Assembly (NCBI GenBank): GCA_035388125.1
Contig: DAOOPF010000004.1
Span: 540 to 64,539, forward strand
Direction of reading: 5' to 3'
From: a bacterium
Lineage (GTDB): Bacteria > Zhuqueibacterota > Zhuqueibacteria > Residuimicrobiales > Residuimicrobiaceae
Length of the DNA: 64,000 nt
Below, piece after piece: positions 24,495 through 46,196 of the stretch; within the stretch, counting starts at the first letter, position 1; each line of letters starts with the position of its first letter. Made by a program: the position numbers and the translations under genes. The notes under the pieces are model-generated. The model worked only from the letters and a program-made list of their open reading frames with translations, had not been told where the DNA came from and ran no database searches.

Positions 24495-24545
24495 AGCAAT
24501 CCTCCTAAATGATAAAATAGTGCATCAATTTTCCGAGACAGAAAA

Positions 24546-26174: not shown

Positions 26175-26643
26175 TGGAGGATCCTTTCACTTTGTAATCT
26201 TTCAATATCGCGACCGCTTTCTCCGGAGTGAGGTTGCCATAGACCTCATTGTCAATCATCATGACCGGTGCGACGGCGCAGAGCCCAAGGCAGCTGGTAA
26301 ACTCGAGAGTAAAGAGCCCATCCGGGGTGGTCTCGCCGGTCTCGATGCCGAGATAGCTCTTGATCTGGGTGAGAACCTCCTTGGAATCCTTGACATAACA
26401 TGGGGCATTGTTGCAGCAGCGCACGATATGTTTGCCCTTGGGCTTGGTGGTGAAAAGAGAGTAAAAAGTGGCGACGCCATAGATTTCGCTGAGGGGGATA
26501 TCGATCTTTTTGGCGATGCGGGTGAGAAGTTCCTCGGAGAGGTGACCATACTCCTTCTGCACATCCTTGAGGACGTAGATGAGCGGCGTTTTGGTCGCCG
26601 CATAGGAAGTGATGATTTTATCTACTGCAGTGTAATCCGTCAT
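26167..26643 (-). CDS. hydC: NuoE-like 2Fe-2S subunit, HydABC set 1
   Basis: Start moved to ATG 26643 (GGAGGA upstream; MTDYTAV...). VRCCNNAPCYV and TSCLGLCAVAP cysteine motifs. Confidence 0.85.
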   Translation of the reverse strand: MTDYTAVDKIITSYAATKTPLIYVLKDVQKEYGHLSEELLTRIAKKIDIPLSEIYGVATFYSLFTTKPKGKHIVRCCNNAPCYVKDSKEVLTQIKSYLGIETGETTPDGLFTLEFTSCLGLCAVAPVMMIDNEVYGNLTPEKAVAILKDYKVKGSSNA

Positions 26644-26707
26644 AGGTTCCTCCATAAAACTCGGCAAGTTACGTACATTAGCTCAACCCGGAATGGAGCT
26701 GCCGGCA

Positions 26708-27073
26708 TTATTCATGCGAAAAGACATGGCTGGAGACGATACGATCGGCCAGGACATGCTCATCGATTATTTTGCGGGCAATTTCCGGATTGATCTTGCC
26801 GTAAGTGGTGGTCACCCCCTTGTCGGTCTGCACCACCTGAACGAGGGGTTCCTGATCGCAGAAACCAAGGCAGCCGGTCTGGGTGACGACGACGTCGGTG
26901 ACACTTCTCTTGTTTATCTCATCAAGTATAGCGGACATGACCGCGCGTGCGCCGGCGGCAATCCCGCAGGTCCCCATGGCGATGACGATGCGGTATTTGG
27001 CCGATTGTTCACGGGCCGCCATCTCTTTTTTGGCCTTTTCCTTGATGGCGCGAAGATCTGACAGACTTTTCAC
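26708..27073 (-). CDS. Small thioredoxin-like [2Fe-2S] ferredoxin
   Basis: Start moved to GTG 27073 (GGAGGA 7 nt upstream), which avoids the overlap with 27198-27746. AMGTCGIAAGA and TGCLGFCDQEP motifs. Confidence 0.75.
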   Translation of the reverse strand: MKSLSDLRAIKEKAKKEMAAREQSAKYRIVIAMGTCGIAAGARAVMSAILDEINKRSVTDVVVTQTGCLGFCDQEPLVQVVQTDKGVTTTYGKINPEIARKIIDEHVLADRIVSSHVFSHE

Positions 27074-27197
27074 TCGGTATTCCTCCTGCAGTTGTGTTTC
27101 ACCGGCGGAGCGTGGAGATGATTCCGCCGATGTGGAGCTGTTGATTAAGTAAAATATACCGCAAAAATTCAATATCGGGCCGGCGCGGGGGGCAGGA

Positions 27198-27746
27198 TCA
27201 GGCGGTCGAGCCAATCGACAGCAGCTTCTCCTCAATCCATTTTTGCGCCGGTTCGACCAGCATGTACTGAGAACAATCCAGCTCGGCCATACGGGCATAG
27301 ATCCAGTAGGAATCAAAAGCAAAACAGCCCGTGTCTGTCCGGTGGCCGTAGACAAAATGGACATCCGGTGCGCCGATGATCAGATTGACCACGGTCTCGG
27401 CAATTCCGCCAAGTGGAGAGCGGTTCAGGCTGTTGTGGTGAAAAGAGGCGGTCAGCGTGGTGCCTTTGCCGAGTCTGGATTTGATCCTGAGCGTCCCGCC
27501 GCAGCTGGTCGCCGCCTGCCTGAGAAGAGGGAGCCCCATGCCGACAGGACGGGTGGTCCGCGTTGTCACAAAGGGATCAATGACCGCATCGATCATCTCC
27601 TGGCTCATGCCGCGTCCGTTATCACGGATGGTAATCGAAAACTGATTTTTCTCTACTGACTCTTCTATCCAGAGGATAACACGGCTGGCCTTCGCCTCGA
27701 TCGAGTTGGTGACGATATCCAGAATATGCAGGGAGAGTTCGCGCAC
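27198..27746 (-). CDS. Stand-alone GHKL (histidine-kinase-like) ATPase domain protein
   Basis: 182 aa. N-box HILDIVTNSIEA, G1 DNGRGM, G2 GMGLPL, GKGTT. No HisKA/DHp domain. Confidence 0.75.
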   Translation of the reverse strand: MRELSLHILDIVTNSIEAKASRVILWIEESVEKNQFSITIRDNGRGMSQEMIDAVIDPFVTTRTTRPVGMGLPLLRQAATSCGGTLRIKSRLGKGTTLTASFHHNSLNRSPLGGIAETVVNLIIGAPDVHFVYGHRTDTGCFAFDSYWIYARMAELDCSQYMLVEPAQKWIEEKLLSIGSTA

Positions 27747-27767
27747 AAGCTGTCCTTATTCTCTGTT

Positions 27768-28559
27768 TCAGTGCACAGCTGCCGCACATGAGGCGCCGCT
27801 GCGGCCGGCCTCTTCCGGTTCAAGGACAGCGATCTGACGGCCGTTCTCCCCCCGGCAAGCCAGCAGAAGCTCGGGGAAAGAGGGTTCTGACATCCTGAAC
27901 CAGCTTCGTGCAGTGCCGATCTGTTCGACGTCATGGGCATCAGAAGCAGTGATCAGCTGCATCCCGCTGCCGCTGTAACGTTCCACCGCGTCGGCCAGGT
28001 TGGCACGGCGGGAGAGTTCAACGATCCTGAAGGGCAAGTCGGCGGGCAGGAAGCCCAGAGTGCGGACCATACTGTTGGCGCGCCGGTCGATGTGGGCGGG
28101 ATAGATGATACCCTCCCTGGCGACGGTCTCACGCACAACCTGATCATAGGGCGCATGTATGGGCAGACCTAGCAAGCGCATATTTTCGGCGACGATATTT
28201 TCCCGCTCATCGACGACAAGCTGCGGTCCCCACAAGGATGGGTCGTTTTCCCCCTCCTGCAGCTGACTGTAGAGCCACTCCTGAAAATCAAAGAGCTGTT
28301 CCAGTGCGGGGAAGAGTGTGATCATGTGGATCTCCTCCCGTGTGGATACCTCGATGCCCGGAAAGACCTGGAGCCGGGTTCCCTGAGCGGCGCGCTGGAC
28401 GGCGGGGACATTCTCCGCCGAATTGTGATCAGTAATCGCAATAAAATCCAGCCCCTGGTGGATGGCGGTCCGGACAATATCCTGCGGCCCCATGGTCAAT
28501 TCAGAGCAGGGTGACAGCACGGTATGAATATGGAGGTCACCAACATACCAGCGCAGCAT
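27768..28559 (-). CDS. PHP-domain phosphoesterase
   Basis: 263 aa. GDLHIHTVLSPC, FIAITDHNS, ASDAH motifs. Confidence 0.75.
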   Translation of the reverse strand: MLRWYVGDLHIHTVLSPCSELTMGPQDIVRTAIHQGLDFIAITDHNSAENVPAVQRAAQGTRLQVFPGIEVSTREEIHMITLFPALEQLFDFQEWLYSQLQEGENDPSLWGPQLVVDERENIVAENMRLLGLPIHAPYDQVVRETVAREGIIYPAHIDRRANSMVRTLGFLPADLPFRIVELSRRANLADAVERYSGSGMQLITASDAHDVEQIGTARSWFRMSEPSFPELLLACRGENGRQIAVLEPEEAGRSGASCAAAVH

Positions 28560-28904
28560 TCAATTGCTCCCGCGTAGACCCAGGGCATAGAGCCGGCCCG
28601 CAATATCAAAGGCATTCTGGTCGCAGCTATAGAGGGCGATCTTTTTGATGTTGGCTTTGTCGATCGCGTCCATGGCGGGCACGGCGCCGTTGGTGAAGAT
28701 GACCGCGGTCAGCTCCTTGAAAAAAGCGATCGCGATGACATTCTCATGGGCCTGATTGGTGATCCAGATGGCATCGCGCGGCACTCTGGCCATCACATCG
28801 CTGAGGATGTCGGAAATGCATGCAGAAGATACATCCCGTTCTTTGGAATTAGCCATTGTAAGGCAATTTAGAGGGATTTCTTCAAGTATTTTTATAAATT
28901 CCAT
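28560..28904 (-). CDS. DRTGG-domain protein
   Basis: 114 aa. Single small domain ending ...IFTNG..P......A....I.L......F..AGRLY, recalled as DRTGG. Abuts the PHP gene with no gap. Confidence 0.6.
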   Translation of the reverse strand: MEFIKILEEIPLNCLTMANSKERDVSSACISDILSDVMARVPRDAIWITNQAHENVIAIAFFKELTAVIFTNGAVPAMDAIDKANIKKIALYSCDQNAFDIAGRLYALGLRGSN

Positions 28905-30236: not shown

Positions 30237-31715
30237 TTATCGTTCAGCGAGCGGAAGGAAAAGGGTAAATGTAGTTCCAACCTCGTATTCCGATTCAGCT
30301 TCAATGCGGCCGGCATAGCTGTCGACGATCTTTTTGACCAAGGTAAGCCCCAGTCCGGTGCCGGTGATGCTGCGGGTGTGGGCATTTTTGGCGCGGAAAA
30401 ACTCCTCGAAAAGCCGTTCTTTCTCTTCAGGCTTCATGCCGATGCCGGTATCGCGTACGACCAGCTTGGCATAGCCCTTTTCCCGGCTGGTATGCAGGGT
30501 TATTGAGCCCTGAGGCCGGTTATACTTGACGGCATTGGAGATCAGGTTGGTGAGGAGCCGCTGGATCTCTTCCTTGTCGGCGTCGATCAGCAAGGCCTCG
30601 GTGAGCTCAGTCTCAAGGGTCAGTCCATTCTTTTCGATCTCATTGGTGAAGAAATCGGCCACAGATTGGGTCATGAGAGAGAGATCCAGCCGTTCGATCT
30701 CGCGGCGGACCTTGCCGGCCTGGATACGGGAGATATTGAGCAGGTCATTGATGAGGGTAATCAGGCTTTTACTGCGCTCAAGGGAGCGGCGAAGATAGCT
30801 GTCGTAGGTCTCGGGTTCATCACCCAGCGTTTTATCGACAACCATTTCGAGGTAGCCCTGGATGGCGGACAATGGCGCCTTGAGTTCATGGGCAGCCATG
30901 TTGACGAACTGGGACTTGAGCAGTTCCAGCTGCTTGAGCTCGGATATATCACGGAGAACAGAGACGTAGCCGATCAGGCGGTTTTGATCATCACGGATGG
31001 TCGTGGTATTGGCCATCACGACCAGTTTTGCCGGCGGATGGATCACGAACTCCTGCTGCAGAGCCTGGAGGCTGTCTTTCTGCCTGAAAATGTCAGCGAT
31101 CAGCTCCTGAAATTGTTCCGGCAGCACCTCGCGGATGGAGCGGCCGATGACCAGCTCCTTTTCAAGTTCGAGCAGGCGGGGAAACTGGGGGTTAAAGAGG
31201 ACCACCTCCTCATCCTGATTGAGCACAACGATGCCGTCGGCGATCGAATTGATGATGGTGCGGATGCGGGACTTTTCCTGCACGATCTCGAGCAGGCGTC
31301 TCTCCTGTTCGATTCTAAGCTGGCGCGCTTCAAGGATATACCAGCGCCTTTCAACAGCGCGGTCAAAAACCAGCTGGATCTCCTCAGGCGCGAAGGGCTT
31401 GGCGATATAGTGGTAGGCGCCCAGCCTGGTGGTCTCGACGGCTGTTTCGATGGAGGCATAGGCCGTGCAGATGACGCATATCGCCTCCGGGAACCTGGCC
31501 TTGATGGCGCCGAGCACCTCCACCCCATCGATATCGCCGATTTTGAGGTCGAGAAAGTAGATATCGAACTCTTCAGCAGTGCCTTTGTCGATACCAAGCC
31601 GTCCGGTTTCGGCGGTTTCGACCCGATGGCCTTGCGCCTCAAAGAGGCGCCGAATGCCCTCCCGCATGCCGAATTCGTCATCGACGACGAGGATATTTGC
31701 CCGTTCGATCTTCAT
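30237..31715 (-). CDS. Hybrid sensor: receiver + PAS + HisKA + HATPase histidine kinase
   Basis: 492 aa. ILVVDDE...YFLDLKIGDIDG...YIAKPF receiver, PAS-like middle, H-box AAHELKAPL, then NAVKYN, DTGIGM, GTGLGL. Confidence 0.85.
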   Translation of the reverse strand: MKIERANILVVDDEFGMREGIRRLFEAQGHRVETAETGRLGIDKGTAEEFDIYFLDLKIGDIDGVEVLGAIKARFPEAICVICTAYASIETAVETTRLGAYHYIAKPFAPEEIQLVFDRAVERRWYILEARQLRIEQERRLLEIVQEKSRIRTIINSIADGIVVLNQDEEVVLFNPQFPRLLELEKELVIGRSIREVLPEQFQELIADIFRQKDSLQALQQEFVIHPPAKLVVMANTTTIRDDQNRLIGYVSVLRDISELKQLELLKSQFVNMAAHELKAPLSAIQGYLEMVVDKTLGDEPETYDSYLRRSLERSKSLITLINDLLNISRIQAGKVRREIERLDLSLMTQSVADFFTNEIEKNGLTLETELTEALLIDADKEEIQRLLTNLISNAVKYNRPQGSITLHTSREKGYAKLVVRDTGIGMKPEEKERLFEEFFRAKNAHTRSITGTGLGLTLVKKIVDSYAGRIEAESEYEVGTTFTLFLPLAER

Positions 31716-31763
31716 AGCTGCCCGATTTGAGTGGTGTAAATGTGCTGCGGAAGAGACAGCGCT

Positions 31764-31787
31764 CTCACCGGTCGTGCGACCGGTGAG
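31764..31787 (-). other. Perfect palindromic hairpin in the 90-nt gap between a receiver gene and the hybrid kinase gene
   Basis: CTCACCGGTCG-tg-CGACCGGTGAG. Confidence 0.5.
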
Positions 31788-31805
31788 CCTGCAGTATACG
31801 TACGC

Positions 31806-32219
31806 TCAGTGCCGGGGAGCTTCAGGAGTATCAAAAAAACGTTCCTTGATAAACGCGAGCAGTTCACGCGGTGGAATCGGTTTATCCAGGTATTCGTCGG
31901 CCTGGATCCATTTACGCTCCTCCTCTGTCTGGGTGGAGAAGCGGATGCCGGTCTCGTGGCTCGCAGCGGTCATGATCACCACCGGAACACTGACGCCCTC
32001 GGGCAGGCTCTTGATGCGGTGACAGAGGACAAAGCCCGAGTCAAAGTGCTCCATGGCCAGATCGACCATCACCAGATCGGGGAGATAGGTTTTAAACAGT
32101 TCAAGTCCTTCGGCGGCTGTGTTGGCTGTGGCCACTTCAAAACCGGCCTTTTCGAGGACCGGCACGTAGATCTGAAGCAGATCATAGTCGTCATCGACCA
32201 TCATGATTTTTTTCTTCAT
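31806..32219 (-). CDS. Single-domain response regulator (receiver only)
   Basis: 137 aa. IMMVDDD, LVMVDLAM, VIMTAA, YLDKP. Confidence 0.85.
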   Translation of the reverse strand: MKKKIMMVDDDYDLLQIYVPVLEKAGFEVATANTAAEGLELFKTYLPDLVMVDLAMEHFDSGFVLCHRIKSLPEGVSVPVVIMTAASHETGIRFSTQTEEERKWIQADEYLDKPIPPRELLAFIKERFFDTPEAPRH

Positions 32220-32246
32220 GGCGCTGGTATCTTCCTTTGTCAGGTT

Positions 32247-32636
32247 TTATTTATCCTGCAGCATGGCGTGTACCTTGGCGAGAAGAAGTTCCTTCTGGAC
32301 AGGTTTTTCGATAAAACTGTCCACAGGATTCCACTCGACATCGGGGCCAATGCGCAGATTGAAGGGATGTTCCCGGTTTACACCGGTCAGCATCAGGATG
32401 GGGGTGTGGCGGATCGCCTCATGCTTGCGAATCTGCCGTGCCACCTCGAATCCTTCACCGACCGTGCTCATCATTACGTCCAGAATGACCAGATCCGGCC
32501 GTTCCGCGATCACCTTTTCCAGTCCTTCGGCTCCGCTGAAAGCGGCCACAACCTCATAGCCGGCCATGGTGAGAAGGGCGCGGTTCAGTTCGACGATATC
32601 GATGTCATCGTCGATCAGTAAAATCTTTTTACTCAT
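32247..32636 (-). CDS. Single-domain response regulator (receiver only)
   Basis: 129 aa. ILLIDDD, LVILDVMM, ILMLTG, FIEKP. Its ATG overlaps the stop of the upstream kinase gene (ATGA at 32633-32636). Confidence 0.85.
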   Translation of the reverse strand: MSKKILLIDDDIDIVELNRALLTMAGYEVVAAFSGAEGLEKVIAERPDLVILDVMMSTVGEGFEVARQIRKHEAIRHTPILMLTGVNREHPFNLRIGPDVEWNPVDSFIEKPVQKELLLAKVHAMLQDK

Positions 32637-34684
32637 TGCATGCTCTCCTGCACAGCTTTGAAATCGAAAGCAGCGGCATGGACTGCATTCTGAACCGGCA
32701 ATTCCACCGTGAATGTCGATCCATGATCGACTTCACTCTTGACGGTGATGCTGCCGCGATGCATTTTAATGATGCCATAGGCGATGGCCAGCCCGAGGCC
32801 GGTCCCCTTGCCGATCTGCTTGGTGGTGAAGAAAGGTGTGAAGAGTTTGTTCATATTTTCAACCGGGATGCCCCCGCCGGTATCGATAAAGGCGATGCGC
32901 ATTTGCTGCCCGTCGGCTGTGACTGTGGCCTGGATGGTCAGTGTGCCTCCCTCAGGCATGGCTTCAGCGGCGTTGACCGCCAGGTTGAGAAAAACCTGAT
33001 AAATCTGATCAAAATCGACCTCGATGAGAGGAAGATCAGGGTCAAGCCTGGCGACAACATGGGTCATCTGAAAAAGCGGCTGATTGAAGGCGACAGAGAT
33101 GAGCTTGTCGAGGATCTCCTGCAGAGTCACCTTGCGCAAATTGAGTTTGCCCTGACGGGCGAAGTTGAGCAGCCCGGCGACGATCTTTTGACACCGCTTG
33201 GCTTCATCCATGATGAAGTGCAAATCCTTGCTCTTCTGGTCGTCCTCCTTCAACTGTTGCAGGAGGAGATGAGCGTAAAGCATGATCGAACCGAGGGGAT
33301 TATTGACCTCATGGGCAACCCCGGCTGCCAGCTGTCCGATCGAGGCCAGTTTCTCATGCTGAATGAGCTGCTCCTGGGCGTCTGCCAGATCGCCCAGAGA
33401 TTCCTGCAGCTCTTTCTGGGTGTGCTGCAGTTCCTCGATAACGTAAGGAAGACACATCTCTTCCTCAGCAAAGCCCTGAAAGACCGCTTTGGCGTATTCG
33501 CGGCAGGTTTCATAGCCGCAGGCTCCGCAGTTCAGTTCGTCGGAGGAGATGGCTTTCTTGATCTCCTTGAGGATCAGCCTGATCTCGTCCTCCGTGGGTT
33601 CAGGTTTTTCCTTGACCGCGGGTTTGAAGGAGCGGTGGATCACGACATCCTGATACTGGAGGATGGCCTTTTTCCATTCCGCATAGTTGGTCTGCATGCG
33701 CAGCGAATCGGTATAGGCGACGATCTTTTGTTTGCGGGTGAAAAAATTCAGCGAGGTGTCCGTGAAAGGCCCGCTGATACACCCCTCGCAGAAGAGGATA
33801 TCAACCAGACTCGCCTTGACCTGATGGTTTTTCAGGCTTTCCAGCAATTTGAGCACGCGCTGTTTGCCTTCGGTGACGACCACTTCGTTGTTCATCAAAT
33901 CGAAAGGCAGGCCGGCACTGCGCAACAGCCCTCCAGAGACCGGATAGAGGCGTCCGAGATAGGCATGAGGCGGATCAAAGGCGACCGGCTCAGCCTGGGC
34001 GGGGTCGATCCCGCGGCGTTTCCAGAGTTCCTTCAGTTCTGCGTAGGTGAGCACCTCGTCCACGGCGTCCGAGACCTCGGGGTCGAGCATCTCGACTTTT
34101 TTAGCCGTGCAGGGACCGATGAAGACCGTCCTGACCTCTTCGCCATAGCAGCGGCGGACAACCCTTCCCATAGCGACCATGGGGCTGACTATCGGGGCCA
34201 GATTGGGCACCAGTTCGGGAGCCGTGCGTTCGACCAGTTCATAGATAACCGGACAGGAGCTGGTAATCAGCGGCAGGGCGATCTCCTGGCCGTCCAGAGT
34301 CTGTTTGGAGTTGACCAGACGGTAGTATTCACGATTGATCAGATCCGCACCGTAGGCGACCTCGACCACGTGCTGAAAACCCGCCTTGTGCAGGGCCCCG
34401 GCAATCTGTTCCCCCTCCAGATCCGGCAGGCCGGCCGGAAAAGAGGGAGCGATCATGGCGACGACAGGATGGCCGCTCTTGAGAAAGCGCTCGACCGCCT
34501 CCACCCCGCTCTTCACCGCTTTGGCCCCCTGGGTGCAGACGGTGACGCAATGTCCGCAGCCCAGACAAAGCTCCTCCACTACCTTCGCCTGGCCTTTGAC
34601 GACCATGATGGCTTTGGCGGGGCACTCGCGGATGCAGGAATAGCAGCTTTTACAACGTTCCTCTATGGTCCATATGACGGACAT
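32633..34684 (-). CDS. Sensory [FeFe]-hydrogenase-like protein fused to a histidine kinase (HydS-type H-domain + extra Cys4 motif + HisKA/HATPase)
   Basis: 683 aa. CKSCYSCIRECP and CLGCGHCVTVC ferredoxin motifs. H-domain motifs ITSSCPV (P1), GPCTAKKVE (P2), DILFCEGCISG (P3). CGACGYETC motif. Coiled coil, H-box VAHEVNNPL, then NAAEAM, DTGGGI, GTGLGL. Confidence 0.8.
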   Translation of the reverse strand: MSVIWTIEERCKSCYSCIRECPAKAIMVVKGQAKVVEELCLGCGHCVTVCTQGAKAVKSGVEAVERFLKSGHPVVAMIAPSFPAGLPDLEGEQIAGALHKAGFQHVVEVAYGADLINREYYRLVNSKQTLDGQEIALPLITSSCPVIYELVERTAPELVPNLAPIVSPMVAMGRVVRRCYGEEVRTVFIGPCTAKKVEMLDPEVSDAVDEVLTYAELKELWKRRGIDPAQAEPVAFDPPHAYLGRLYPVSGGLLRSAGLPFDLMNNEVVVTEGKQRVLKLLESLKNHQVKASLVDILFCEGCISGPFTDTSLNFFTRKQKIVAYTDSLRMQTNYAEWKKAILQYQDVVIHRSFKPAVKEKPEPTEDEIRLILKEIKKAISSDELNCGACGYETCREYAKAVFQGFAEEEMCLPYVIEELQHTQKELQESLGDLADAQEQLIQHEKLASIGQLAAGVAHEVNNPLGSIMLYAHLLLQQLKEDDQKSKDLHFIMDEAKRCQKIVAGLLNFARQGKLNLRKVTLQEILDKLISVAFNQPLFQMTHVVARLDPDLPLIEVDFDQIYQVFLNLAVNAAEAMPEGGTLTIQATVTADGQQMRIAFIDTGGGIPVENMNKLFTPFFTTKQIGKGTGLGLAIAYGIIKMHRGSITVKSEVDHGSTFTVELPVQNAVHAAAFDFKAVQESMQ

Positions 34685-34708: not shown

Positions 34709-36415
34709 TTAGGCGCGTTCCACATAGTGGGTGTGGAGCAGTTCATGGGCCTTGTGGCCGTTGGGCTCGCCGAGGAATTCCTTATAAAGGCGCATCACCG
34801 CTTCATTCTGGTGTGAAGCGCGTTTGGGCAAGGTGCGATCGATGGCATAGATAGCCTCCATGCGCTTGCGCACCCGGTCCGGGTCGCTGTTGATGGGCTG
34901 GCCGCCGCCATTGATGCAGCCGTTCGGGCAGGCCATGACCTCGATGAAGTGATAGGTGTTCTCGCCGGAGCGGATCTTGTCAAGGATGGTGCCGATATTC
35001 TTCAGTCCGCTGACGGCGGCTACCTTGATGGTCAGGTTGGCGATGGTGACCTCGCCCTCCTTTACTCCCTGCAGACCACGCACCGGCGTGAACTCGACAT
35101 TATCCATCTCCTTGCCGGTGAGGAAAAAGTGGGCGGTGCGCAGAGCAGCTTCCATGACCCCGCCGGCGGCGCCGAAAATGACCGCGGCACCAGTCGACTC
35201 GCCCATCGGATCATCGAAATGTTCGTCAGCGAGCTTGGTGAAATCGATGCCGGCGTTCTTGATCATGCGCGCCAGCTCGCGTGTAGTGAGCACCGCATCG
35301 ACATCGCTGAATTCCTCTTTCAGTTCCGGGCGCTGGGCCTCGAACTTTTTGGCGATACAGGGCATGATCGAGATGACATAGATGTCCCTGGCAGGAATGC
35401 CGGTCTTTTCGGCGTAGTAGGATTTGATCAGCGCCCCCTCCATCTCGTGCGGCGACTTGCAGGAGGAGACATGCGGGAGCAGATCAGGATAAAAATGTTC
35501 AATATACTTGACCCAGCCCGGACTGCAGGAGGTCAGCAGCGGCAGCTTGCCGCCGTTATTGACCCGATGCAGCAGTTCGGAGGCCTCTTCGATGATGGTC
35601 AGGTCGGCGCCAAAGTTGGTATCGAATACCCGGTCCACCCCGAGCCGGCGCAGGGCGGCGACAATCTTGCCAGTGACCACGCTGCCCGGTTCCATGCCGA
35701 ACTCCTCGCCGAGGGCGACGCGTACGGCCGGTGCGATCTGGGCGACGACATGCTTTTTGGGATTATTGATCGCCTCCCAGGCGATTTTTTCGTTGCTCTT
35801 TTCGCGCAGTGCGCCAACCGGGCAGACCGTGATGCACTGGCCGCAGAAGACGCAGGCGATGGCATTGAGGCTGCCGTCCATGGCCGGAGCGACTGCGGTC
35901 TTGAAGCCGCGGCGGACAAAATCGATGGCGCCCACATTCTGGACCTCATGGCAGACGCGTACGCAGCGGCCGCAGAGGATGCATTTTTCAGGGTCGCGCT
36001 CGATCGAGGGGCTGGCCACGTCGATCTTGCCGCCGCGAATCTCACCGGCATAGCGGACATCGCGAACGCCGTACTGCGCCGCCAGATCCTGCAGCTCGCA
36101 GTTGCCGTTGCGCACGCAGGTGAGGCAGTCCTGGGGATGGTTGGCGATAAGCAGCTCGACGATGGTCTTGCGGGAACGGCGCACACGGGGTGAATTGGTC
36201 AGAACCACCATACCCTCGGTTACCGGGTAGGCGCAAGCGGGAATCAGATTGCGCTGTCCCTCGACCTCGACCACGCAAACCCGGCATGAGCCGGTGGGGC
36301 TAAAACCCTTGAGATAGCAGAGGGTGGGAATCTGGATGCCCTCGCGCTGTGCGACAGTGAGGATGGTTTCGCCCGGATTAGCCCAGCACTCTTTATTATT
36401 AATCGTTACCTTCAT
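34709..36415 (-). CDS. hydA: [FeFe]-hydrogenase catalytic subunit, HydABC set 2
   Basis: 568 aa. CILCGRCVRVC, CVFCGQCITVCP. TSCSPGW, MPCIAKKFE, EVMACPNGCINGGGQP. Confidence 0.9.
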   Translation of the reverse strand: MKVTINNKECWANPGETILTVAQREGIQIPTLCYLKGFSPTGSCRVCVVEVEGQRNLIPACAYPVTEGMVVLTNSPRVRRSRKTIVELLIANHPQDCLTCVRNGNCELQDLAAQYGVRDVRYAGEIRGGKIDVASPSIERDPEKCILCGRCVRVCHEVQNVGAIDFVRRGFKTAVAPAMDGSLNAIACVFCGQCITVCPVGALREKSNEKIAWEAINNPKKHVVAQIAPAVRVALGEEFGMEPGSVVTGKIVAALRRLGVDRVFDTNFGADLTIIEEASELLHRVNNGGKLPLLTSCSPGWVKYIEHFYPDLLPHVSSCKSPHEMEGALIKSYYAEKTGIPARDIYVISIMPCIAKKFEAQRPELKEEFSDVDAVLTTRELARMIKNAGIDFTKLADEHFDDPMGESTGAAVIFGAAGGVMEAALRTAHFFLTGKEMDNVEFTPVRGLQGVKEGEVTIANLTIKVAAVSGLKNIGTILDKIRSGENTYHFIEVMACPNGCINGGGQPINSDPDRVRKRMEAIYAIDRTLPKRASHQNEAVMRLYKEFLGEPNGHKAHELLHTHYVERA

Positions 36416-36431: not shown

Positions 36432-38447
36432 TTACTCTACAAAGATCGCATCGAATTTGCAGTTGGCGCGGCACTGATCACAGCGGATGCACTTTTCGTC
36501 GATGATATAATGGGCTTTACCCTTCTCGCCCAGGATGGCGTTCTGGGGACATTTGCGCGCACAGACCGTGCAGCCGGTGCATTTGTCGGTGTCGATATGG
36601 TAGGTGAGCAGCTCGCGGCAGCTGCCGGCCGGGCACTTGCGATCGTAGAGATGAGCTTCGTATTCATCGCGGAAATAGCGCAAGGTACTCATGACCGGGT
36701 TGGCCGCAGTCTGTCCCAGCCCGCAGAGGGAGGTATCCCGGATCACCTCTGAGAGGCGCTCCAGGTAGACCATGCCCTGAAAGCGCAGCAAAGCCTCGTC
36801 CGGAGACTTTTCGCTGCGGTAGCTCTGGGTCAGCCGTTCGAGGATCTCCAGCAGCCGCTTGGTGCCTTCACGGCAGGGGATGCACTTGCCGCAGGATTCG
36901 GACTGGATGAAGGTCATAAAATATTTGGCGACGTCAACCATACAGGTGGTTTCGTCCATGACCACCAGGCCGCCGGAGCCCATCATGGCGCCGACCTTTT
37001 TGAGGTTTTCATAATCTATCTGGGTATCGATGACCTGTTCCGGCAGAGCGCCGCCGGAGGGGCCGCCGATCTGAACGGCCTTGAATTTTTTACCATCCGG
37101 GCAGCCGGCGCCGATATCATAGACCACTTCACGGAGGGTCACGCCCATCGGCACTTCCACCAGCCCGGTGTTGGTGATCTTGCCGGAGAGGGCGAAGATC
37201 TTGGTCCCCTTGGAGCCCTCGGTGCCGATGGCGGCATACTTGTCGGCGCCATCGCGCATGATGTTGGGTACATTGGCGAAGGTTTCGACGTTGTTGATGA
37301 CCGTCGGTTTGCCGAAAAGGCCCGAGACCGCCGGGAAAGGCGGACGGGGCCGCGGCATACCGCGCTTGCCTTCGATGGAGTGCAGGAGAGCGGTTTCTTC
37401 GCCGCAGACAAATGCACCGGCGCCTTTTTTGATCTTGAGGTTCAGATTAAAGCCGCTGCCGAGGATGTTCTGTCCGAGCAGGCCATAGGCTTTCGCGTCG
37501 GCGATGGTCTTTTCCAGCCGCTTGATGGCGAGGGGATACTCTGCACGGCAGTAGATGTAGCCTTCGCTGGCTCCGATGGCATAGGCGCCGATGATCATGC
37601 CTTCGATGACACGGTGAGGATCGCTCTCCATCACGGCACGGTCCATGAAAGCGCCCGGATCGCCCTCGTCGGCGTTGCAGACGATATATTTCTGTTCAGC
37701 GGGCTGATTGAGGGCGAATTCCCATTTTTTCCCGGTCGGAAAACCGCCGCCGCCACGGCCGCGCAGACCCGATTTGAGGATCTCCTTGACCACCTCGGCG
37801 GGGGTCATTTTATTGATAGCTCGGGAAAGGCCCCTGTAGCCACCGCGGGCAAGATACTGGTCGATGCTCTCGGGATCAATGACACCGCAGTTCTCGAGCA
37901 CCAGCTTTTTCTGTTTGGCGAAAAAGGGCACTTGACTAAGGAAGGGCAGCTCTTTCCAGCCGGTCTTGTCGTTGGCCGATTCATAGATGCCGAGCAGTTT
38001 CTCCTCAACCACCTCGTTCTCAACCAGGGTTTTTTGCAGGAGCAGGGGGACATCTTCCGGTTTGACCTTGCAGTAACAGAGTCGGGCACGGCCCGGGATT
38101 TTAATGTCGACGATCACCTCTTTGGAGCAGTAGCCGACGCATCCGGTAGGCACGACCTTGATCTCGAGGTTCAGCCTCTCCAGTTCACTCAGGATCGCCG
38201 CATGCACCCGGTTGGCGCCGTTGGCGAGGCCGCAGGTCCCCATGCCGATGAGGATGACCGGTTCCTTGTGGTTCTGCAGCAGGATTTCGGATTTAAAGGC
38301 GTCAAGCTGTTTCTTGCTTTCTGCGGACTGGTGGCACTTTTGTCCTTCGTTGATGCAATCTATGTAATGGACGCAAGGCTTTTCAGTGGTGTGCCAGCAG
38401 TTGGCAAATATCTGCGCATATGAATTCATACCAGCCTCATTCTTCAT
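36432..38447 (-). CDS. hydB: NuoF-like flavoprotein subunit, HydABC set 2, full architecture (N-terminal 2Fe-2S thioredoxin-like domain, C-terminal 2x[4Fe-4S])
   Basis: 671 aa. GMGTCGLANGA / TGCVGYCSKE, GRGGGGFPTGKKW, ESCGKCIPCREG, CTGCTVCARKCP, CIRCDQCRANC. Start could be ATG 38429 instead. Confidence 0.85.
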   Translation of the reverse strand: MKNEAGMNSYAQIFANCWHTTEKPCVHYIDCINEGQKCHQSAESKKQLDAFKSEILLQNHKEPVILIGMGTCGLANGANRVHAAILSELERLNLEIKVVPTGCVGYCSKEVIVDIKIPGRARLCYCKVKPEDVPLLLQKTLVENEVVEEKLLGIYESANDKTGWKELPFLSQVPFFAKQKKLVLENCGVIDPESIDQYLARGGYRGLSRAINKMTPAEVVKEILKSGLRGRGGGGFPTGKKWEFALNQPAEQKYIVCNADEGDPGAFMDRAVMESDPHRVIEGMIIGAYAIGASEGYIYCRAEYPLAIKRLEKTIADAKAYGLLGQNILGSGFNLNLKIKKGAGAFVCGEETALLHSIEGKRGMPRPRPPFPAVSGLFGKPTVINNVETFANVPNIMRDGADKYAAIGTEGSKGTKIFALSGKITNTGLVEVPMGVTLREVVYDIGAGCPDGKKFKAVQIGGPSGGALPEQVIDTQIDYENLKKVGAMMGSGGLVVMDETTCMVDVAKYFMTFIQSESCGKCIPCREGTKRLLEILERLTQSYRSEKSPDEALLRFQGMVYLERLSEVIRDTSLCGLGQTAANPVMSTLRYFRDEYEAHLYDRKCPAGSCRELLTYHIDTDKCTGCTVCARKCPQNAILGEKGKAHYIIDEKCIRCDQCRANCKFDAIFVE

Positions 38448-38901
38448 TAGTAGTCTTTTTCATTGAAGCAATCAACTTTTGCACAGCCTTGACCGTCAGT
38501 CCGCCGTGAAATTCGTCATCGATGGTGATCACCGGGGCAATGCTGCAGGCGCCGATGCAGGCAACAGTTTCGATTGAAAACTGGAGGTCTTTGCTGGTCT
38601 GACCGGCCTTGATACCCAGTTCATTTTCGAGTGTGGTCAGAATATCAAATGATCCCTTGACATGGCAGGCCGTGCCGCGGCAGACGCGAATGACGTGCTT
38701 GCCCAGCGGCCGCAGACGGAACTGGTTGTAAAAGGTCGCCACCCCATAAACACGGCTGACTGGCAGCCTGGTGTGTTCGGCGACGTGCTCCAGATCGTCC
38801 TCGGAGAGATAGCCGCTTACCTCCTGAATATCCTGGAGGATCGGAATGAGGATCGAGGGATCATTTTGGGGATACTTTGCGTAGACCTCTTGAATTTCCA
38901 T
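38437..38901 (-). CDS. hydC: NuoE-like 2Fe-2S subunit, HydABC set 2
   Basis: Start moved to ATG 38901 (GAGGA upstream; MEIQEVYAKYP...). IRVCRGTACHV and VACIGACSIAP. Confidence 0.85.
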   Translation of the reverse strand: MEIQEVYAKYPQNDPSILIPILQDIQEVSGYLSEDDLEHVAEHTRLPVSRVYGVATFYNQFRLRPLGKHVIRVCRGTACHVKGSFDILTTLENELGIKAGQTSKDLQFSIETVACIGACSIAPVITIDDEFHGGLTVKAVQKLIASMKKTTNEE

Positions 38902-38932: not shown

Positions 38933-39307
38933 TTAGTGTTTGAGAGTATCGATGCCCAGCGCCGCAGTGACGGCCAGTTGCAGATCTTGCATGCCGAGTG
39001 AATCCACATGGTAATAAAAAACTTGTTCCCGGCGGACCTTGCCCTCGAGGCTGCGCGTATTCTCCTCTGTCCGCACGATAATGCGCATCGAGGGATCACA
39101 TCCCTTGAGGAGCCGGATGGCCTGGTCGATTTTCAGACCATGGGTCCGGGCGTCAAGGACGATGAGGTCGAAATGCTGGCGCTGCACCTGTTCGAGGGCC
39201 TTGACGGCGTCCTCGACCATAAATGTGGCGATTGCATTGGTGCGGAGAAAGTGGTCCAGCTCCTGCGTAATGCTCTTGTGTGGATTTGCGACGATGAGAC
39301 AATTCAT
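38933..39307 (-). CDS. Degenerate receiver (pseudo-receiver) domain protein, first gene of the hydrogenase array
   Basis: 124 aa with a CheY-like layout. The acidic pair is replaced (LIVANPH) and no conserved Lys-Pro is seen, though an Asp is retained in LIVLDARTHG. Confidence 0.6.
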   Translation of the reverse strand: MNCLIVANPHKSITQELDHFLRTNAIATFMVEDAVKALEQVQRQHFDLIVLDARTHGLKIDQAIRLLKGCDPSMRIIVRTEENTRSLEGKVRREQVFYYHVDSLGMQDLQLAVTAALGIDTLKH

Positions 39308-39346: not shown

Positions 39347-39361
39347 TCAAATAGCATGCCA
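39347..39361 (-). promoter_or_regulatory. Sigma-54-like promoter candidate upstream of the hydrogenase array
   Basis: Minus strand TGGCATG-ctat-TTGAC, versus the consensus TGGCACG-N4-TTGCW. The -24 GG is intact but -12 reads GA instead of GC. Located 40-54 nt upstream of ATG 39307. Confidence 0.4.
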
Positions 39362-39450: not shown

Positions 39451-39470
39451 TTCTATCATAATTGATAGAA
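39451..39470. promoter_or_regulatory. Perfect palindrome, candidate enhancer-binding-protein site (UAS)
   Basis: TTCTATCA-taat-TGATAGAA, about 90-110 nt upstream of the sigma-54-like element, with an AT-rich tract in between. Confidence 0.4.
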
Positions 39471-45611: not shown

Positions 45612-45887
45612 CAGTAATTAACGGAAGAAAGGGGTTGAATTGCACGCCGCAACCTGTTCAGGAAATCTACAATCCAAAGGGAGTCAAACTATCGATCTTG
45701 TTGCTATATTAAGCAGTTATTTATAGCTAACTATACTATATTTAGCGCAATTTAGTATAATTGCTTTGCATTATGTTGAATATTTAATCAACTGCTATGC
45801 CACACTGTTCATTATGTCTTCATAATTATCTAGCTTTCGTTATTGATATTCAGTGACTTAACCCTCCATCTACTATCCGGTGCATTT

Positions 45888-45903
45888 TGGCACACAAGTT
45901 GCA
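45888..45903 (+). promoter_or_regulatory. Sigma-54 promoter (perfect consensus)
   Basis: TGGCAC-acaag-TTGCA. Preceded by an AT-rich region with inverted repeats (GCAATT-N6-AATTGC at 45747-45764; GCTATA-N13-TATAGC at 45703-45727). Confidence 0.75.
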
Positions 45904-46162: not shown

Positions 46163-46196
46163 AACGCTCTGCAGATAACCCAACAGGAGGATGCGG

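What the first reader, a model, noticed from the sequence alone, without database searches (positions are those of the whole stretch)
30237..34684. Hydrogenase-like histidine kinase plus multi-component phosphorelay embedded between two catalytic hydrogenase gene sets
- Gene 32633-34684 joins a 2x[4Fe-4S] module to an [FeFe]-hydrogenase H-domain and then to a complete HisKA/HATPase kinase, with an extra CGACGYETC Cys motif in between. All four H-cluster cysteines can be placed in the H-domain (P1 ITSSCPV, P2 GPCTAKKVE, P3 DILFCEGCISG).
- Its P1 motif has Ser where catalytic enzymes have the first of two adjacent cysteines (TSCCP). I recall that first Cys being the proton-relay Cys and being lost in sensory HydS proteins.
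- The gene is translationally coupled (ATGA overlap) to a receiver-only protein. A second receiver-only protein and a receiver-PAS-kinase hybrid follow.
- A sigma-54 activator with a receiver domain sits upstream of the whole array.
- This reads as an H2- or redox-sensing phosphorelay that could feed back on sigma-54-dependent hydrogenase expression.
- Histidine-kinase-linked putative sensory hydrogenases are a recognised bioinformatic class (group C1 as I recall it). To my knowledge their signalling path has not been worked out.
Basis: partly seen in the sequence, partly recalled or inferred. Interest (0 to 1): 0.7.

Follow-up and report, generated by a model that had tools for sequence, protein, structure and literature searches.

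The report
Hydrogen-sensor hydrogenase fused to histidine kinase
This gene fuses a non-catalytic, sensor-type iron hydrogenase to a complete histidine kinase and lies at the end of a hydrogenase operon with several receiver proteins; it belongs to a widespread class that is known from sequence but untested, and it offers a direct way to test how bacteria sense hydrogen.

Summary
Gene 32633-34684 (minus strand, 683 aa) carries two [4Fe-4S] motifs, an [FeFe]-hydrogenase H-domain, a Cx2Cx4Cx16C cluster motif, HisKA and HATPase_c. All four H-cluster cysteines are invariant in 76 homologues. The canonical proton relay is lost (C299->S, S319->A, E282->R, R286->S; M353->G).

It is the fourth gene of a pseudo-receiver-hydC-hydB-hydA operon. 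An ATGA-coupled receiver, a second receiver and a receiver-PAS-kinase follow it.

The cassette hydCBA / HydS-kinase / small receiver / receiver-kinase recurs in at least ten phyla (>=596 species genomes). The distance from the last Fe-S cysteine to the phospho-His is 47 +/- 7n residues in 195 of 195 relatives, which indicates a rigid coiled-coil transmitter.

Family-level matches suggest a two-tier kinase cascade rather than a His-Asp-His-Asp relay, because no Hpt domain was found.

A conserved TGGCAY-N5-TTGA element and an upstream palindrome precede the operon only in relatives that also have the orphan NtrC-type activator next door. Sigma-54 feedback is therefore plausible here but is specific to this lineage.

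The class is already described: HydDB group C, and 'BfuT' with a His-kinase domain (mSystems 2024, which reports it as C3, not C1). I rate it a new member of a known kind, of moderate interest.

The parts
39452..39469 (.). Perfect palindrome TCTATCA-N4-TGATAGA. Candidate binding site (UAS) for a dimeric regulator, about 100 nt upstream of the -24 element.
   Evidence: - It is the only match in the window.
- It is conserved with symmetric changes in relatives: TCTCTCA..TGAGAGA in L085, TCTATCA..TGATAGG in L086, and a related sequence in L089.
39347..39361 (-). Sigma-54-type promoter-like element TGGCATGCTATTTGA: -24 TGGCAT, -12 TTGA (non-canonical).
   Evidence: - The block is invariant among otherwise divergent intergenic DNA in the window, L085 and L086.
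- The same element occurs in L089 and, as TTGT, in L006.
- The pattern is rare: 0.009 per kb per strand. It is absent from 9 relatives that lack the adjacent activator gene.
- A sigma-70-like TTGACC-18-TATCAT overlaps it.
38933..39307 (-). Pseudo-receiver (124 aa), first gene of the operon.
   Evidence: - Weak Response_reg hit, 32.6 bits.
- It lacks the acidic DD pair and the conserved Lys.
- It is called as a gene in public assemblies and conserved in L085, L086 and L089.
38437..38901 (-). hydC: NuoE-like [2Fe-2S] subunit, 154 aa.
   Evidence: - Pfam 2Fe-2S_thioredx, E 6.9e-51.
- The start follows the public gene call and the sequence read.
36432..38447 (-). hydB: NuoF-like FMN/NADH subunit with C-terminal 2x[4Fe-4S].
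   Evidence: Pfam Complex1_51K, NADH_4Fe-4S and Fer4; NCBIfam nuoF_fam.
34709..36415 (-). hydA: catalytic [FeFe]-hydrogenase, bifurcating/NADH-dependent type; P1 = TSCSPGW.
   Evidence: - Pfam Fe_hyd_lg_C, E 4.5e-104.
- NCBIfam FeFe_hydrog_A6, 891.9 bits against a cutoff of 765.
- Best solved relatives are T. kivui and A. woodii HydA1.
32633..34684 (-). HydS-type sensory [FeFe]-hydrogenase fused to a histidine kinase, 683 aa.

| Segment | Residues | Window coordinates |
|---|---|---|
| 2x[4Fe-4S] | aa 1-55 | 34520-34684 |
| H-domain | aa 73-306 | 33767-34468 |
| C-terminal Cx2Cx4Cx16C | aa 384-413 | 33446-33535 |
| Coiled-coil/DHp with H458 | aa 412-511 | 33152-33451 |
| HATPase_c | aa 557-665 | 32690-33016 |
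   Evidence: Supported.
32247..32636 (-). REC1: single-domain response regulator (129 aa), ATGA-coupled to the kinase gene.
   Evidence: - Pfam Response_reg; intact DD/D/T/K residues.
- It falls in receiver cluster 4, which elsewhere often heads hydCBA operons.
31806..32219 (-). REC2: single-domain response regulator (137 aa). It is the orthologue of the near-universal receiver that follows HydS-kinase genes.
   Evidence: - Receiver cluster 3 holds 58 members, 50 of them at the +1 position.
- It is a PhoB/OmpR/RpaA-like receiver with an insertion after beta4.
30237..31715 (-). Second kinase: REC-PAS-HisKA-HATPase_c (492 aa).
   Evidence: - Pfam; H276 ELK, N, G1 and G2 boxes intact.
- It is present within the next 3 genes in 63 of 70 related loci.
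- Its receiver is AtoC/NtrC-like and its kinase core is PnpS/PhoR/WalK-like.
39649..41013 (-). Orphan NtrC-type sigma-54 activator: REC, AAA+ with GSFTGA, and HTH_8.
   Evidence: - Pfam; best NCBIfam matches are AtoC and ZraR; GSFTGA at aa 220.
- Its receiver helix alpha1 (LREGCRRL) resembles that of the second kinase's receiver (MREGIRRL). The other activator in the window does not.
41023..42072 (-). Receiver fused to a degenerate HATPase_c-like (pseudokinase) domain, 349 aa, co-transcribed with the activator.
   Evidence: - Pfam finds REC only.
- The alignment with relatives that keep the N, G1 and G2 boxes shows these are lost here.
22764..28559 (-). Second hydrogenase gene set (context): PHP, HATPase_c-only protein, two NuoE-like proteins, NuoF-like, HydA.
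   Evidence: - Pfam; gene calls.
- The same order directly follows the second kinase in KSB1-type relatives.

Best explanation
**What it is.** Gene 32633-34684 encodes a HydS-type (group C) sensory [FeFe]-hydrogenase. Its C-terminal [4Fe-4S] domain connects through one continuous coiled-coil helix to the phospho-accepting His of an AtoS/ZraS-like histidine kinase.

**Proposed mechanism**
1. *Sensing.* The H-cluster has a crippled proton relay and so turns over slowly. It equilibrates with H2 and sets the redox or conformational state of the Fe-S domains.
2. *Transmission.* That state passes through the heptad-phased helix and switches autophosphorylation at H458.
3. *First tier.* The phosphoryl group goes to NtrC-like receivers. 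The conserved target is the N-terminal receiver of the downstream REC-PAS-kinase. In this lineage the neighbouring orphan NtrC-type activator is a second target.
4. *Second tier.* The second, PhoR/WalK-like kinase then phosphorylates the PhoB-like single-domain receivers REC2 and REC1. These act on unknown protein targets.
5. *Feedback.* The activator binds the upstream palindrome and drives a sigma-54-type promoter in front of the operon. The operon runs pseudo-receiver, hydCBA, hydS-kinase, REC1, REC2, REC-PAS-kinase, which closes a feedback loop on hydrogenase expression.

**Shown.** Domain content, conserved ligands, operon layout, conservation of the cassette, the heptad-quantised linker, and the conserved promoter-like and palindromic elements.

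**Inferred.** H2 as the signal, the sign of the response, the order of phosphotransfer, and the activator-promoter link.
For: **Identity**
- Pfam and motif reading.
- Invariant H-cluster and Fe-S cysteines, K195 (CpI K358) and the APS motif in 76 homologues.
- AF2 model with pLDDT 84. Foldseek gives probability 1.0 to DdH, CpI and CbA5H for the N-terminal part and to ZraS for the kinase.

**Sensor-type active site**
- C299->S143, S319->A163, E282->R122, R286->S126, M353->G190, M497->L297.
- Across the family, position 299 is S/P/D/T/A and position 353 is Gly in 194 of 194.
- These are the changes reported for TmHydS and TamHydS (PMC8163306, PMC10055695).

**Transmitter**
- A single predicted helix spans aa 412-477, from the last cluster ligand C411 through H458.
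- The C411-H458 distance is 33, 40, 47, 54 or 68 residues in 195 of 195 relatives, all equal to 47 +/- 7n.

**Cassette**
- At least 596 species genomes encode a relative.
- hydA lies directly upstream in 45 of 67 loci. A small receiver is the next gene in 53 of 70. A REC-(PAS)-kinase lies within the next 3 genes in 63 of 70.

**Cascade order**
- The HydS-kinase core matches AtoS/ZraS/NtrB.
- The second kinase's receiver matches AtoC/NtrX/ZraR/NtrC.
- The second kinase's core matches PnpS/PhoR/WalK.
- The small receivers match PhoB/OmpR/RpaB/YycF.
- These matches hold for window, Bacteroidales and Ignavibacteria members.
- In many relatives the second kinase has no input domain other than its receiver (REC-HisKA-HATPase, about 375 aa).

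**Sigma-54 branch**
- The activator has no kinase of its own, while the other activator in the window is paired with a HAMP kinase.
- The alpha1 helices of the activator's receiver and the second kinase's receiver are similar.
- HydS-kinase genes are followed directly by NtrC-type regulators in L024, L027 and L050.
- The conserved TGGCAY-N5-TTGA element and palindrome are present in 5 of 5 relatives with the adjacent activator and in 0 of 9 without it.
- Canonical TGGCAC-N5-TTGC sits 47-63 nt before hydC in L020, L030 and L031. Overall 5 of 68 loci have such an element, against 0.7 expected.
Against: - No experiment exists for any kinase-fused HydS.
[quoted passage not shown] This weakens a simple 'cluster reduction switches the output' model.
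- The -12 element lacks the canonical C (TTGA), and a sigma-70-like TTGACC-18-TATCAT overlaps it.
- Only 7 of 80 related loci have a sigma-54 activator within 10 kb. A 66%-identical relative (L087) lacks it. In L089 the activator's alpha1 helix does not resemble the second kinase's receiver.
- HydS-kinases that sit next to NtrC-type regulators have a different DHp alpha1 helix from the window type.
- The ATGA coupling of the kinase gene to REC1 would conventionally point to REC1 as the direct partner.
- Family-level kinase/receiver congruence is a weak predictor of pairing. My covariation attempt was uninformative.
Confidence: 0.55

Rival explanations
1. The protein senses redox state (ferredoxin/NADH pool) rather than H2. 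Its Fe-S clusters would be reduced by ferredoxin or by the adjacent HydABC, and the H-domain would be structural or only buffer electrons.
For: - The N-terminal 2x[4Fe-4S] domain is ferredoxin-like and the protein carries a third accessory cluster.
- The proton relay is lost.
- The TamHydS C-terminal cluster is not reduced by H2 (PMC13104023).
- The gene is co-transcribed with a ferredoxin/NADH-linked HydABC.
Against: - All four H-cluster cysteines, K195 and the APS motif are invariant across phyla. That is hard to explain without a bound [2Fe] subcluster.
- TmHydS and TamHydS bind a functional H-cluster and react with H2 (PMC8163306, PMC10055695).
Confidence: 0.2
2. The system is a conventional two-component pair. 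The HydS-kinase would phosphorylate the translationally coupled REC1 (and REC2) directly. These small receivers would be the output or a phosphate sink. The REC-PAS-kinase would be a separate sensor that uses its PAS domain.
For: - ATGA coupling of the kinase gene to REC1.
- A small receiver is the next gene in 53 of 70 loci.
- Adjacent kinase-regulator genes are usually cognate (established knowledge).
Against: - The small receivers are PhoB/OmpR-like, whereas the kinase core is AtoS/ZraS-like.
- In most phyla the second kinase has no PAS domain or other input besides its receiver, so it needs an upstream kinase.
- REC1 is not the conserved partner type.
Confidence: 0.3
3. The protein is a physical subunit of the HydABC complex ('BfuT'). 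It would tune the enzyme after translation, and the kinase and receivers would act on the enzyme rather than on transcription.
For: - It is always encoded directly after hydA (45 of 67 loci).
- No DNA-binding regulator is conserved in the cassette.
- Receiver or pseudo-receiver genes often head hydCBA operons.
- The mSystems 2024 paper names it the T subunit (PMC11406978).
Against: - There is no evidence of complex formation.
- Solved HydABC complexes contain no such subunit (one search hits 8a6t, 7q4v, 7p5h).
- In this lineage an activator and a promoter-like element provide a transcriptional route.
Confidence: 0.15
4. The operon is transcribed from an ordinary sigma-70 promoter (TTGACC-18-TATCAT). 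On this reading the neighbouring NtrC-type activator regulates other genes, and the TGGCA block is a repressor or other binding site.
For: - Sigma-70-like match of 10/12 at 39350-39321.
- The -12 element lacks the canonical C.
- Canonical sigma-54 promoters do exist elsewhere in the window, for example at 45888.
Against: - The -10 hexamer is not conserved in L085, L086 or L089, whereas TGGCAY-N5-TTGA is.
- The element co-occurs strictly with the adjacent activator gene, 5 of 5 against 0 of 9.
- A TTGA variant occupies the same position as canonical TTGC promoters before hydC in Ignavibacteria (L017 against L020 and L030).
Confidence: 0.25

Closest known systems
'BfuT' of sub-type V BfuABC clusters (Hydrogenedentota, Caldithrix abyssi DSM 13497; mSystems 2024, PMC11406978)
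   Same: - Same architecture: a group C H-domain with a histidine-kinase domain.
- Same position, directly after hydA of an A3-type HydABC.
- A Hydrogenedentota locus (L029) and Calditrichia proteins are among the relatives found here.
   Different: - That paper reports the fusion and its HydDB class (C3).
- In the sections searched it mentions no response regulators, and I found no description of the second kinase, the linker periodicity or promoter elements.
- The window's protein is about 44% identical to the Hydrogenedentota example and about 60% identical to KSB1 and Calditrichia members.
TmHydS (Thermotoga maritima) and other PAS-type HydS (M2f, group C)
   Same: - N-terminal 2x[4Fe-4S].
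- H-domain with all cluster ligands but without the relay Cys, and with Gly at M353.
- C-terminal Cx2Cx4Cx16C cluster.
- Encoded next to a bifurcating HydABC.
- 31-35% identity over 420 aa to PAS-type HydS found in Bacteroidales loci.
   Different: - Here the Fe-S domain is followed by a coiled coil, HisKA and HATPase_c, not by a PAS domain.
- Ser rather than Ala at position 299, and Leu rather than Ser at position 497.
- The output is a His-Asp system rather than the Ser/Thr phosphatase and kinase partners proposed for PAS-type HydS.
TamHydS (Thermoanaerobacter mathranii; M2e, group D)
   Same: - Same accessory clusters.
- Loss of the canonical proton pathway.
- Leu at M497.
- Genomic link to HydABC and to HATPase_c-type proteins.
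   Different: - TamHydS has no fused signalling domain.
- It has Ser/Thr at M353, whereas this family has Gly.
[NiFe] regulatory hydrogenase systems HoxBC-HoxJ-HoxA / HupUV-HupT-HupR (HydDB group 2b)
   Same: It works the same way in outline. A low-activity hydrogenase acts as an H2 sensor and controls a histidine kinase. The kinase controls an NtrC-family regulator of hydrogenase genes. This comparison rests on established knowledge and on the Table 1 entry in PMC5037454.
   Different: - The metal centre is unrelated ([NiFe] against [FeFe]).
- Sensor and kinase are separate proteins in those systems and one polypeptide here.
- This system has an extra kinase tier and small receivers.
AtoS-AtoC and ZraS-ZraR two-component systems
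   Same: - The kinase core is most similar to AtoS (223 bits) and ZraS. The ZraS cytoplasmic domain is the best solved match (TM 0.80).
- The neighbouring activator is most similar to AtoC and ZraR.
   Different: - All scores are far below the family cut-offs, so these are relatives and not orthologues.
- The input is a cytoplasmic metallo-domain, not a periplasmic or membrane sensor.

Membership tests
[FeFe]-hydrogenase (H-domain) | Fe_hyd_lg_C fold. | tested here: met
   - Pfam E 2.6e-49.
- AF2 model with Foldseek probability 1.0; TM 0.64-0.70 normalised to DdH.
[FeFe]-hydrogenase (H-domain) | Four Cys ligands of [4Fe-4S]H (P1, P2, P3), plus the Lys and APS residues that hold the [2Fe] subcluster. 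| tested here: met
   - C144, C192, C299, C302, K195 and A79-P80 are invariant, and S81 is nearly invariant, in 76 sequences.
- Residues were mapped to CpI through HydA.
- P3 spacing is CxxC rather than CxxxC.
- Cofactor binding itself cannot be tested here.
Putative sensory [FeFe]-hydrogenase (group C / HydS-like) | Loss of the proton-relay Cys (C299) and of the canonical proton pathway, with a small residue at M353. | tested here: met
   S143, A163, R122, S126 and G190. Family-wide, position 299 is S/P/D/T/A and position 353 is Gly in 194 of 194.
Putative sensory [FeFe]-hydrogenase (group C / HydS-like) | N-terminal 2x[4Fe-4S] and C-terminal Cx2Cx4Cx16C cluster motif. | tested here: met
   Motifs at aa 11-21, 40-50 and 386-411; PF04060 hit.
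Putative sensory [FeFe]-hydrogenase (group C / HydS-like) | PAS domain after the C-terminal cluster (M2f, TmHydS type). | tested here: not met
   No PAS hit in this protein. A coiled coil leads straight into HisKA.
Putative sensory [FeFe]-hydrogenase (group C / HydS-like) | Encoded with a group A3 (bifurcating-type) hydrogenase. | tested here: met
   hydCBA lies directly upstream. The same holds in 45 of 67 related loci.
HydDB subgroup C1 (histidine kinase-linked) | Membership of the C1 sequence cluster by the HydDB k-NN/SSN classifier. | not testable with these tools
   - HydDB is not available here.
- PMC11406978 reports the His-kinase-fused type as C3 (best hit WP_006928132.1).
- One search places the N-terminal part closer to PAS-type HydS than to HATPase_c-prefixed H-domain proteins.
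Class I histidine kinase (HisKA + HATPase_c) | H-box His, and N, G1 and G2 boxes. | tested here: met
   - H458 EVNNP, NLAVNA, DTGGG and GKGTGL.
- All are invariant in the family.
- ZraS is the best solved match.
Multi-step phosphorelay (His-Asp-His-Asp) | An Hpt domain or a Spo0B/ChpT-like phosphotransferase between two receivers. | tested here: not met
   - No Hpt hit in any ORF of 22.7-45.5 kb.
- The second kinase has an intact ATP-binding domain.
- The only degenerate kinase-like protein (41023-42072) lacks a recognisable H-box.
Sigma-54-dependent promoter | -24 GG and -12 GC elements with 10-nt spacing (TGGCAC-N5-TTGCW). | tested here: inconclusive
   - TGGCAT-N5-TTGA: the -24 element is met and the -12 C is missing.
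- The element is conserved in 5 relatives and co-occurs with the activator gene.
NtrC-family enhancer-binding response regulator (39649-41013) | Receiver with the phospho-Asp, an AAA+ domain with the GAFTGA loop, and a C-terminal Fis-type HTH. | tested here: met
   - Pfam Response_reg, Sigma54_activat (E 8.7e-68) and HTH_8.
- GSFTGA at aa 220.
- DD/D/T/K residues present.

The most novel reading that the evidence does not exclude
The conserved cassette (HydS-kinase, receiver-only kinase, atypical single-domain receivers with a beta4-alpha4 insertion) may be an H2-sensing two-tier kinase cascade whose output is not transcription. The phosphorylated small receivers, and the receiver or pseudo-receiver genes that head hydCBA operons, would bind electron-bifurcating HydABC complexes directly and switch them on or off, or change their direction. 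This would give post-translational H2 feedback on bifurcating hydrogenases in more than ten phyla. Sigma-54 control would be a lineage-specific add-on.
Probability: 0.2. Interest if true: 0.75.

Novelty: new member of a known kind. Interest (0 to 1): 0.5.

Why it matters
- **Open question.** How putative sensory [FeFe]-hydrogenases signal is unresolved. The two characterised models, TmHydS and TamHydS, have no measurable output, and the latest work questions the proposed role of the C-terminal cluster (PMC13104023).
- **Direct readout.** A HydS wired directly to a histidine kinase gives a quantitative biochemical readout: autophosphorylation with and without H2.
- **Defined design rule.** The heptad-quantised linker and the defined set of candidate receivers make the transmission mechanism and the pathway testable.
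- **Cultured hosts.** The same cassette is reported in cultured species (Caldithrix abyssi, Tenuifilum, Perlabentimonas, Williamwhitmania; PMC11406978).
- **Ecological reach.** The cassette sits on bifurcating hydrogenase operons in many anaerobes of sediments, digesters and guts. It is therefore likely to set how fermenters respond to H2 partial pressure.

Tried and rejected
- **Canonical sigma-54 promoter search (TGGCAC-N5-TTGCW).** Up to 2 mismatches gave no excess over chance and no hit before either hyd operon. Only relaxing the -12 C and comparing relatives revealed the conserved element.
- **Palindrome search.** The palindrome occurs nowhere else in the window, so there is no regulon link to the second hyd set.
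- **Covariation.** Mutual information between the DHp helices and receiver columns, meant to assign partners, used 31 usable loci. The top pairs were not at interface positions, so I judged it uninformative.
- **Nar1-like or non-H-cluster reading.** Rejected, because all ligands, K358 and the APS motif are invariant.
- **Strict phosphorelay.** Rejected for lack of an Hpt domain.
- **The perfect sigma-54 promoter at 45888 as the target of the hyd-adjacent activator.** Judged unlikely, because that operon encodes its own HAMP kinase and NtrC-type activator.
- **C-terminal domain of 41023-42072.** No solved-structure match.
- **Literature look-ups that gave nothing.**
  - Searching the supplement of PMC11406978 for the window's assembly accessions found nothing.
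  - The Greening 2016 paper is not held.
  - A literature search for 'TSCSP' found nothing relevant.

Full report
**1. What is in the sequence**

All genes in 22.7-45.5 kb lie on the minus strand. Gene 32633-34684 encodes 683 aa.

Pfam hits:

| Domain | Residues | E-value |
|---|---|---|
| Fer4 dicluster | 7-54 | not recorded here |
| Fe_hyd_lg_C | 73-306 | 2.6e-49 |
| PF04060 'FeS' | 384-413 | 1.5e-10 |
| HisKA | 450-511 | 2.1e-13 |
| HATPase_c | 557-665 | 4.9e-25 |

- The kinase stop codon overlaps the start of the next gene as caATGAgt.
- Downstream lie two single-domain receivers (32247-32636 and 31806-32219) and a REC-PAS-HisKA-HATPase_c protein (30237-31715). All have intact catalytic residues.
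- Upstream, separated by 24 and 16 nt and a short overlap, lie hydA (34709-36415), hydB (36432-38447) and hydC (38437-38901).
- No intrinsic-terminator-like site lies in the minus-strand intergenic gaps between 39307 and 30237. One transcription unit is therefore plausible.
- Further upstream are an NtrC-type activator (39649-41013; GSFTGA, HTH_8) and a receiver fused to a degenerate HATPase_c-like domain (41023-42072).
- A second hydrogenase gene set occupies 22764-28559.
- The window matches public MAG contigs GCA_029560815.1 and GCA_035358555.1.

**2. The hydrogenase part is a sensor-type H-domain**

- *Conserved ligands.* In 76 homologues, all eight N-terminal Fe-S cysteines are invariant. 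So are the four H-cluster cysteines (C144, C192, C299, C302), K195, A79 and P80 of the APS motif (S81 is nearly invariant), the four C-terminal cysteines (C386, C389, C394, C411) and H458.
- *Mapping to CpI.* I mapped residues to CpI numbering through the window's own HydA. That protein aligns without gaps to CpI around P1. The changes are C299->S143, S319->A163, E282->R122, R286->S126, M353->G190 and M497->L297, with P3 as CxxC.
- *Family-wide pattern.* Position 299 is S, P, D, T or A. Position 353 is Gly in 194 of 194 sequences.
- *Match to known sensors.* These are the hallmarks reported for TmHydS and TamHydS (PMC8163306, PMC10055695).
- *Structure.* The AF2 model (pLDDT 84.2) matches solved [FeFe]-hydrogenases with Foldseek probability 1.0. 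The C-terminal third matches the ZraS kinase domain (TM 0.80).
- *Conclusion.* A Nar1-like or cofactor-less reading is not supported.

**3. How sensor and kinase are joined**

- The model predicts one helix from residue 412, directly after the last cluster ligand C411. It runs through H458 to residue 477.
- In 195 of 195 family members where both landmarks could be found, the C-to-H distance is one of five values:

| Distance (residues) | Sequences |
|---|---|
| 33 | 2 |
| 40 | 51 |
| 47 | 140 |
| 54 | 1 |
| 68 | 1 |

- Every value equals 47 +/- a multiple of 7.
- Heptad-quantised linkers are the signature of coiled-coil signalling helices in sensor kinases (established knowledge).
- The C-terminal Fe-S domain is therefore the proximal input module of the kinase.
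- The finding that the TamHydS C-terminal cluster is not reduced by H2 (PMC13104023) cautions against assuming simple cluster reduction as the trigger.

**4. Distribution and conserved partners**

- I annotated 80 loci with profiles built from the window's own proteins:

| Feature | Loci |
|---|---|
| hydA directly upstream | 45 of 67 |
| Small receiver as the next gene | 53 of 70 |
| REC-(PAS)-kinase within the next three genes | 63 of 70 |
| NtrC-type regulator as the next gene | 3 of 70 |
| Any sigma-54 AAA+ gene within 10 kb | 7 of 80 |

- The phyla include Ignavibacteriota, Bacteroidota, Planctomycetota, Myxococcota, Verrucomicrobiota, Acidobacteriota, Actinomycetota (Thermoleophilia), Chloroflexota, KSB1, Calditrichota and Hydrogenedentota.
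- Clustering of 205 receiver domains shows that the near-universal receiver after the kinase gene is the orthologue of REC2.
- REC1 belongs to a second family that elsewhere often opens hydCBA operons.
- Both small-receiver families carry an insertion between beta4 and alpha4.

**5. Likely order of phosphotransfer (inference)**

| Component | Best NCBIfam matches |
|---|---|
| HydS-kinase core | AtoS, ZraS, NtrB |
| Second kinase's receiver | AtoC, NtrX, ZraR, NtrC |
| Second kinase's core | PnpS, PhoR, WalK |
| Small receivers | PhoB, OmpR, RpaB, YycF (RpaA and PhoP among solved structures) |

- This pattern holds for window, Bacteroidales and Ignavibacteria members.
- In many phyla the second kinase consists only of a receiver and a kinase core (about 375 aa). 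It therefore needs an upstream kinase.
- The most economical scheme is HydS-kinase to the second kinase's receiver, then the second kinase to the small receivers.
- No Hpt domain exists in the region, so this is a cascade and not a His-Asp-His-Asp relay.
- The rival scheme, direct transfer to the coupled REC1, cannot be excluded. A covariation test was uninformative.

**6. The sigma-54 link**

- *No canonical promoter.* No canonical sigma-54 promoter precedes either hyd operon.
- *A conserved non-canonical element.* The 340-nt region before the pseudo-receiver holds TGGCATGCTATTTGA (39361-39347). A perfect palindrome TCTATCA-N4-TGATAGA (39452-39469) lies 100 nt upstream of it.
- *Conservation.* Both blocks are conserved in relatives at 83%, 76% and 62% protein identity, while the surrounding DNA is not. 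The half-sites show symmetric substitutions. L006 carries TGGCAT-N5-TTGT.
- *Rarity and co-occurrence.* The relaxed pattern occurs 28 times in 3.1 Mb. It is present in all five relatives with the NtrC-type gene next door and absent from nine relatives without it.
- *Other lineages.* Canonical TGGCAC-N5-TTGC lies 47-63 nt before hydC in L020, L030 and L031, and a TTGA variant in L017. That makes 5 of 68 loci against 0.7 expected.
- *The activator is an orphan.* The window's other activator (51320-52675) is paired with its own HAMP kinase. It lies downstream of a perfect sigma-54 promoter at 45888.
- *Receiver similarity.* The alpha1 helix of the orphan activator's receiver (LREGCRRL) resembles that of the second kinase's receiver (MREGIRRL). 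The other receivers do not.
- *Against.* The -12 C is missing, and a sigma-70-like TTGACC-18-TATCAT overlaps the element. The activator is absent from a 66%-identical relative. In L089 the alpha1 similarity is not seen.
- *Conclusion.* Sigma-54 feedback is plausible for this lineage but is not a property of the family.

**7. What is known, and novelty**

- HydDB defines C1 (histidine kinase-linked), C2 and C3 as putative sensors (PMC5037454).
- The mSystems 2024 study of Hydrogenedentota describes 'BfuT' with a His-kinase domain directly after bfuA in sub-type V clusters.
  - It reports HydDB class C3.
  - It notes the same cluster in Caldithrix abyssi and in cultured Bacteroidota (PMC11406978).
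- The window's N-terminal 420 aa are 31-35% identical to PAS-type HydS. They are 23% identical to HATPase_c-prefixed H-domain proteins.
- My full-text searches turned up no biochemical study of a kinase-fused HydS.
- The gene is therefore a new member of a known, uncharacterised kind.
- This analysis adds three things:
  - the conserved three-to-four-protein cassette;
  - the heptad rule for the transmitter;
  - the lineage-specific promoter and activator evidence.

Noticed in passing
window 34709-36415 and 22764-24494 (minus strand): Both catalytic HydA paralogues have P1 = TSCSPGW. Ser aligns with CpI C300, the [4Fe-4S]H ligand, and Cys aligns with C299. A. woodii HydA1 (7q4v) shows the same in the ungapped alignment. 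PMC11406978 notes that Ser is common at this position. I do not know which residue ligates the cluster in these enzymes.
   Followed up: partly
window 45888-45903 (+) and 46191-52675 (+): A perfect sigma-54 promoter, TGGCACACAAGTTGCA, precedes an operon. The operon encodes a 4Fe-4S dicluster protein, an NrfD-like membrane protein fused to cytochrome c7, an unknown 268-aa protein, a HAMP histidine kinase and a second NtrC-type activator.
   Followed up: partly
window 45788-45802 (minus strand): A second TGGCAT-N5-TTGA element lies in the divergent intergenic region. It points toward the transglutaminase-like, FGGY kinase, receiver-pseudokinase and NtrC-type activator genes. This suggests the activator operon may itself depend on sigma-54.
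   Followed up: no
window 41023-42072 (minus strand): The 349-aa protein is a receiver fused to a coiled coil and a degenerate HATPase_c-like domain. Relatives P0135-P0137 keep the N, G1 and G2 boxes, whereas this clade has lost them and has no clear H-box. It may be a pseudokinase adaptor. No solved structure matches the C-terminal part.
   Followed up: partly
window 38933-39307 (minus strand); L085, L086, L089, L006: A pseudo-receiver without the DD pair or the Lys is the first gene of the hydCBA-hydS operon. In other phyla an intact REC1-like receiver holds this first position in hydCBA operons: the second operon in Ignavibacteria and the first in Bacteroidales.
   Followed up: partly
window 26708-28904 (minus strand): The second hydrogenase set opens with a weak DRTGG-like ORF, a PHP-domain protein, a 182-aa HATPase_c-only protein and an extra NuoE-like protein. 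In KSB1-type relatives this block directly follows the second kinase. A Mur-ligase-like gene (28914-30110) is inserted between the two sets in this lineage.
   Followed up: no
L025 610-2277, L041 391-1956, L058: Planctomycetota and Thermoleophilia loci encode, upstream of hydCBA, proteins with an N-terminal anti-sigma-like HATPase_c fused to a Fer4 domain and a degenerate H-domain. The P2 motif is poorly recognisable. These may be the type that PMC11406978 reports as HydDB C1.
   Followed up: no
L054, L060, L062, L068, L069, L071, L076, L084 (Bacteroidales): A second, PAS-type HydS (about 620-630 aa) is encoded divergently upstream of hydC, in addition to the kinase-fused one after hydA.
   Followed up: partly
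L008, L010, L014-L017, L019, L020, L022, L030, L032, L051, L079 (Ignavibacteria): The cassette is followed by a second operon: REC (about 125 aa), HydC (157 aa), a short HydB (about 400 aa), a long HydA (about 640 aa) and a further histidine kinase (about 460-490 aa).
   Followed up: no
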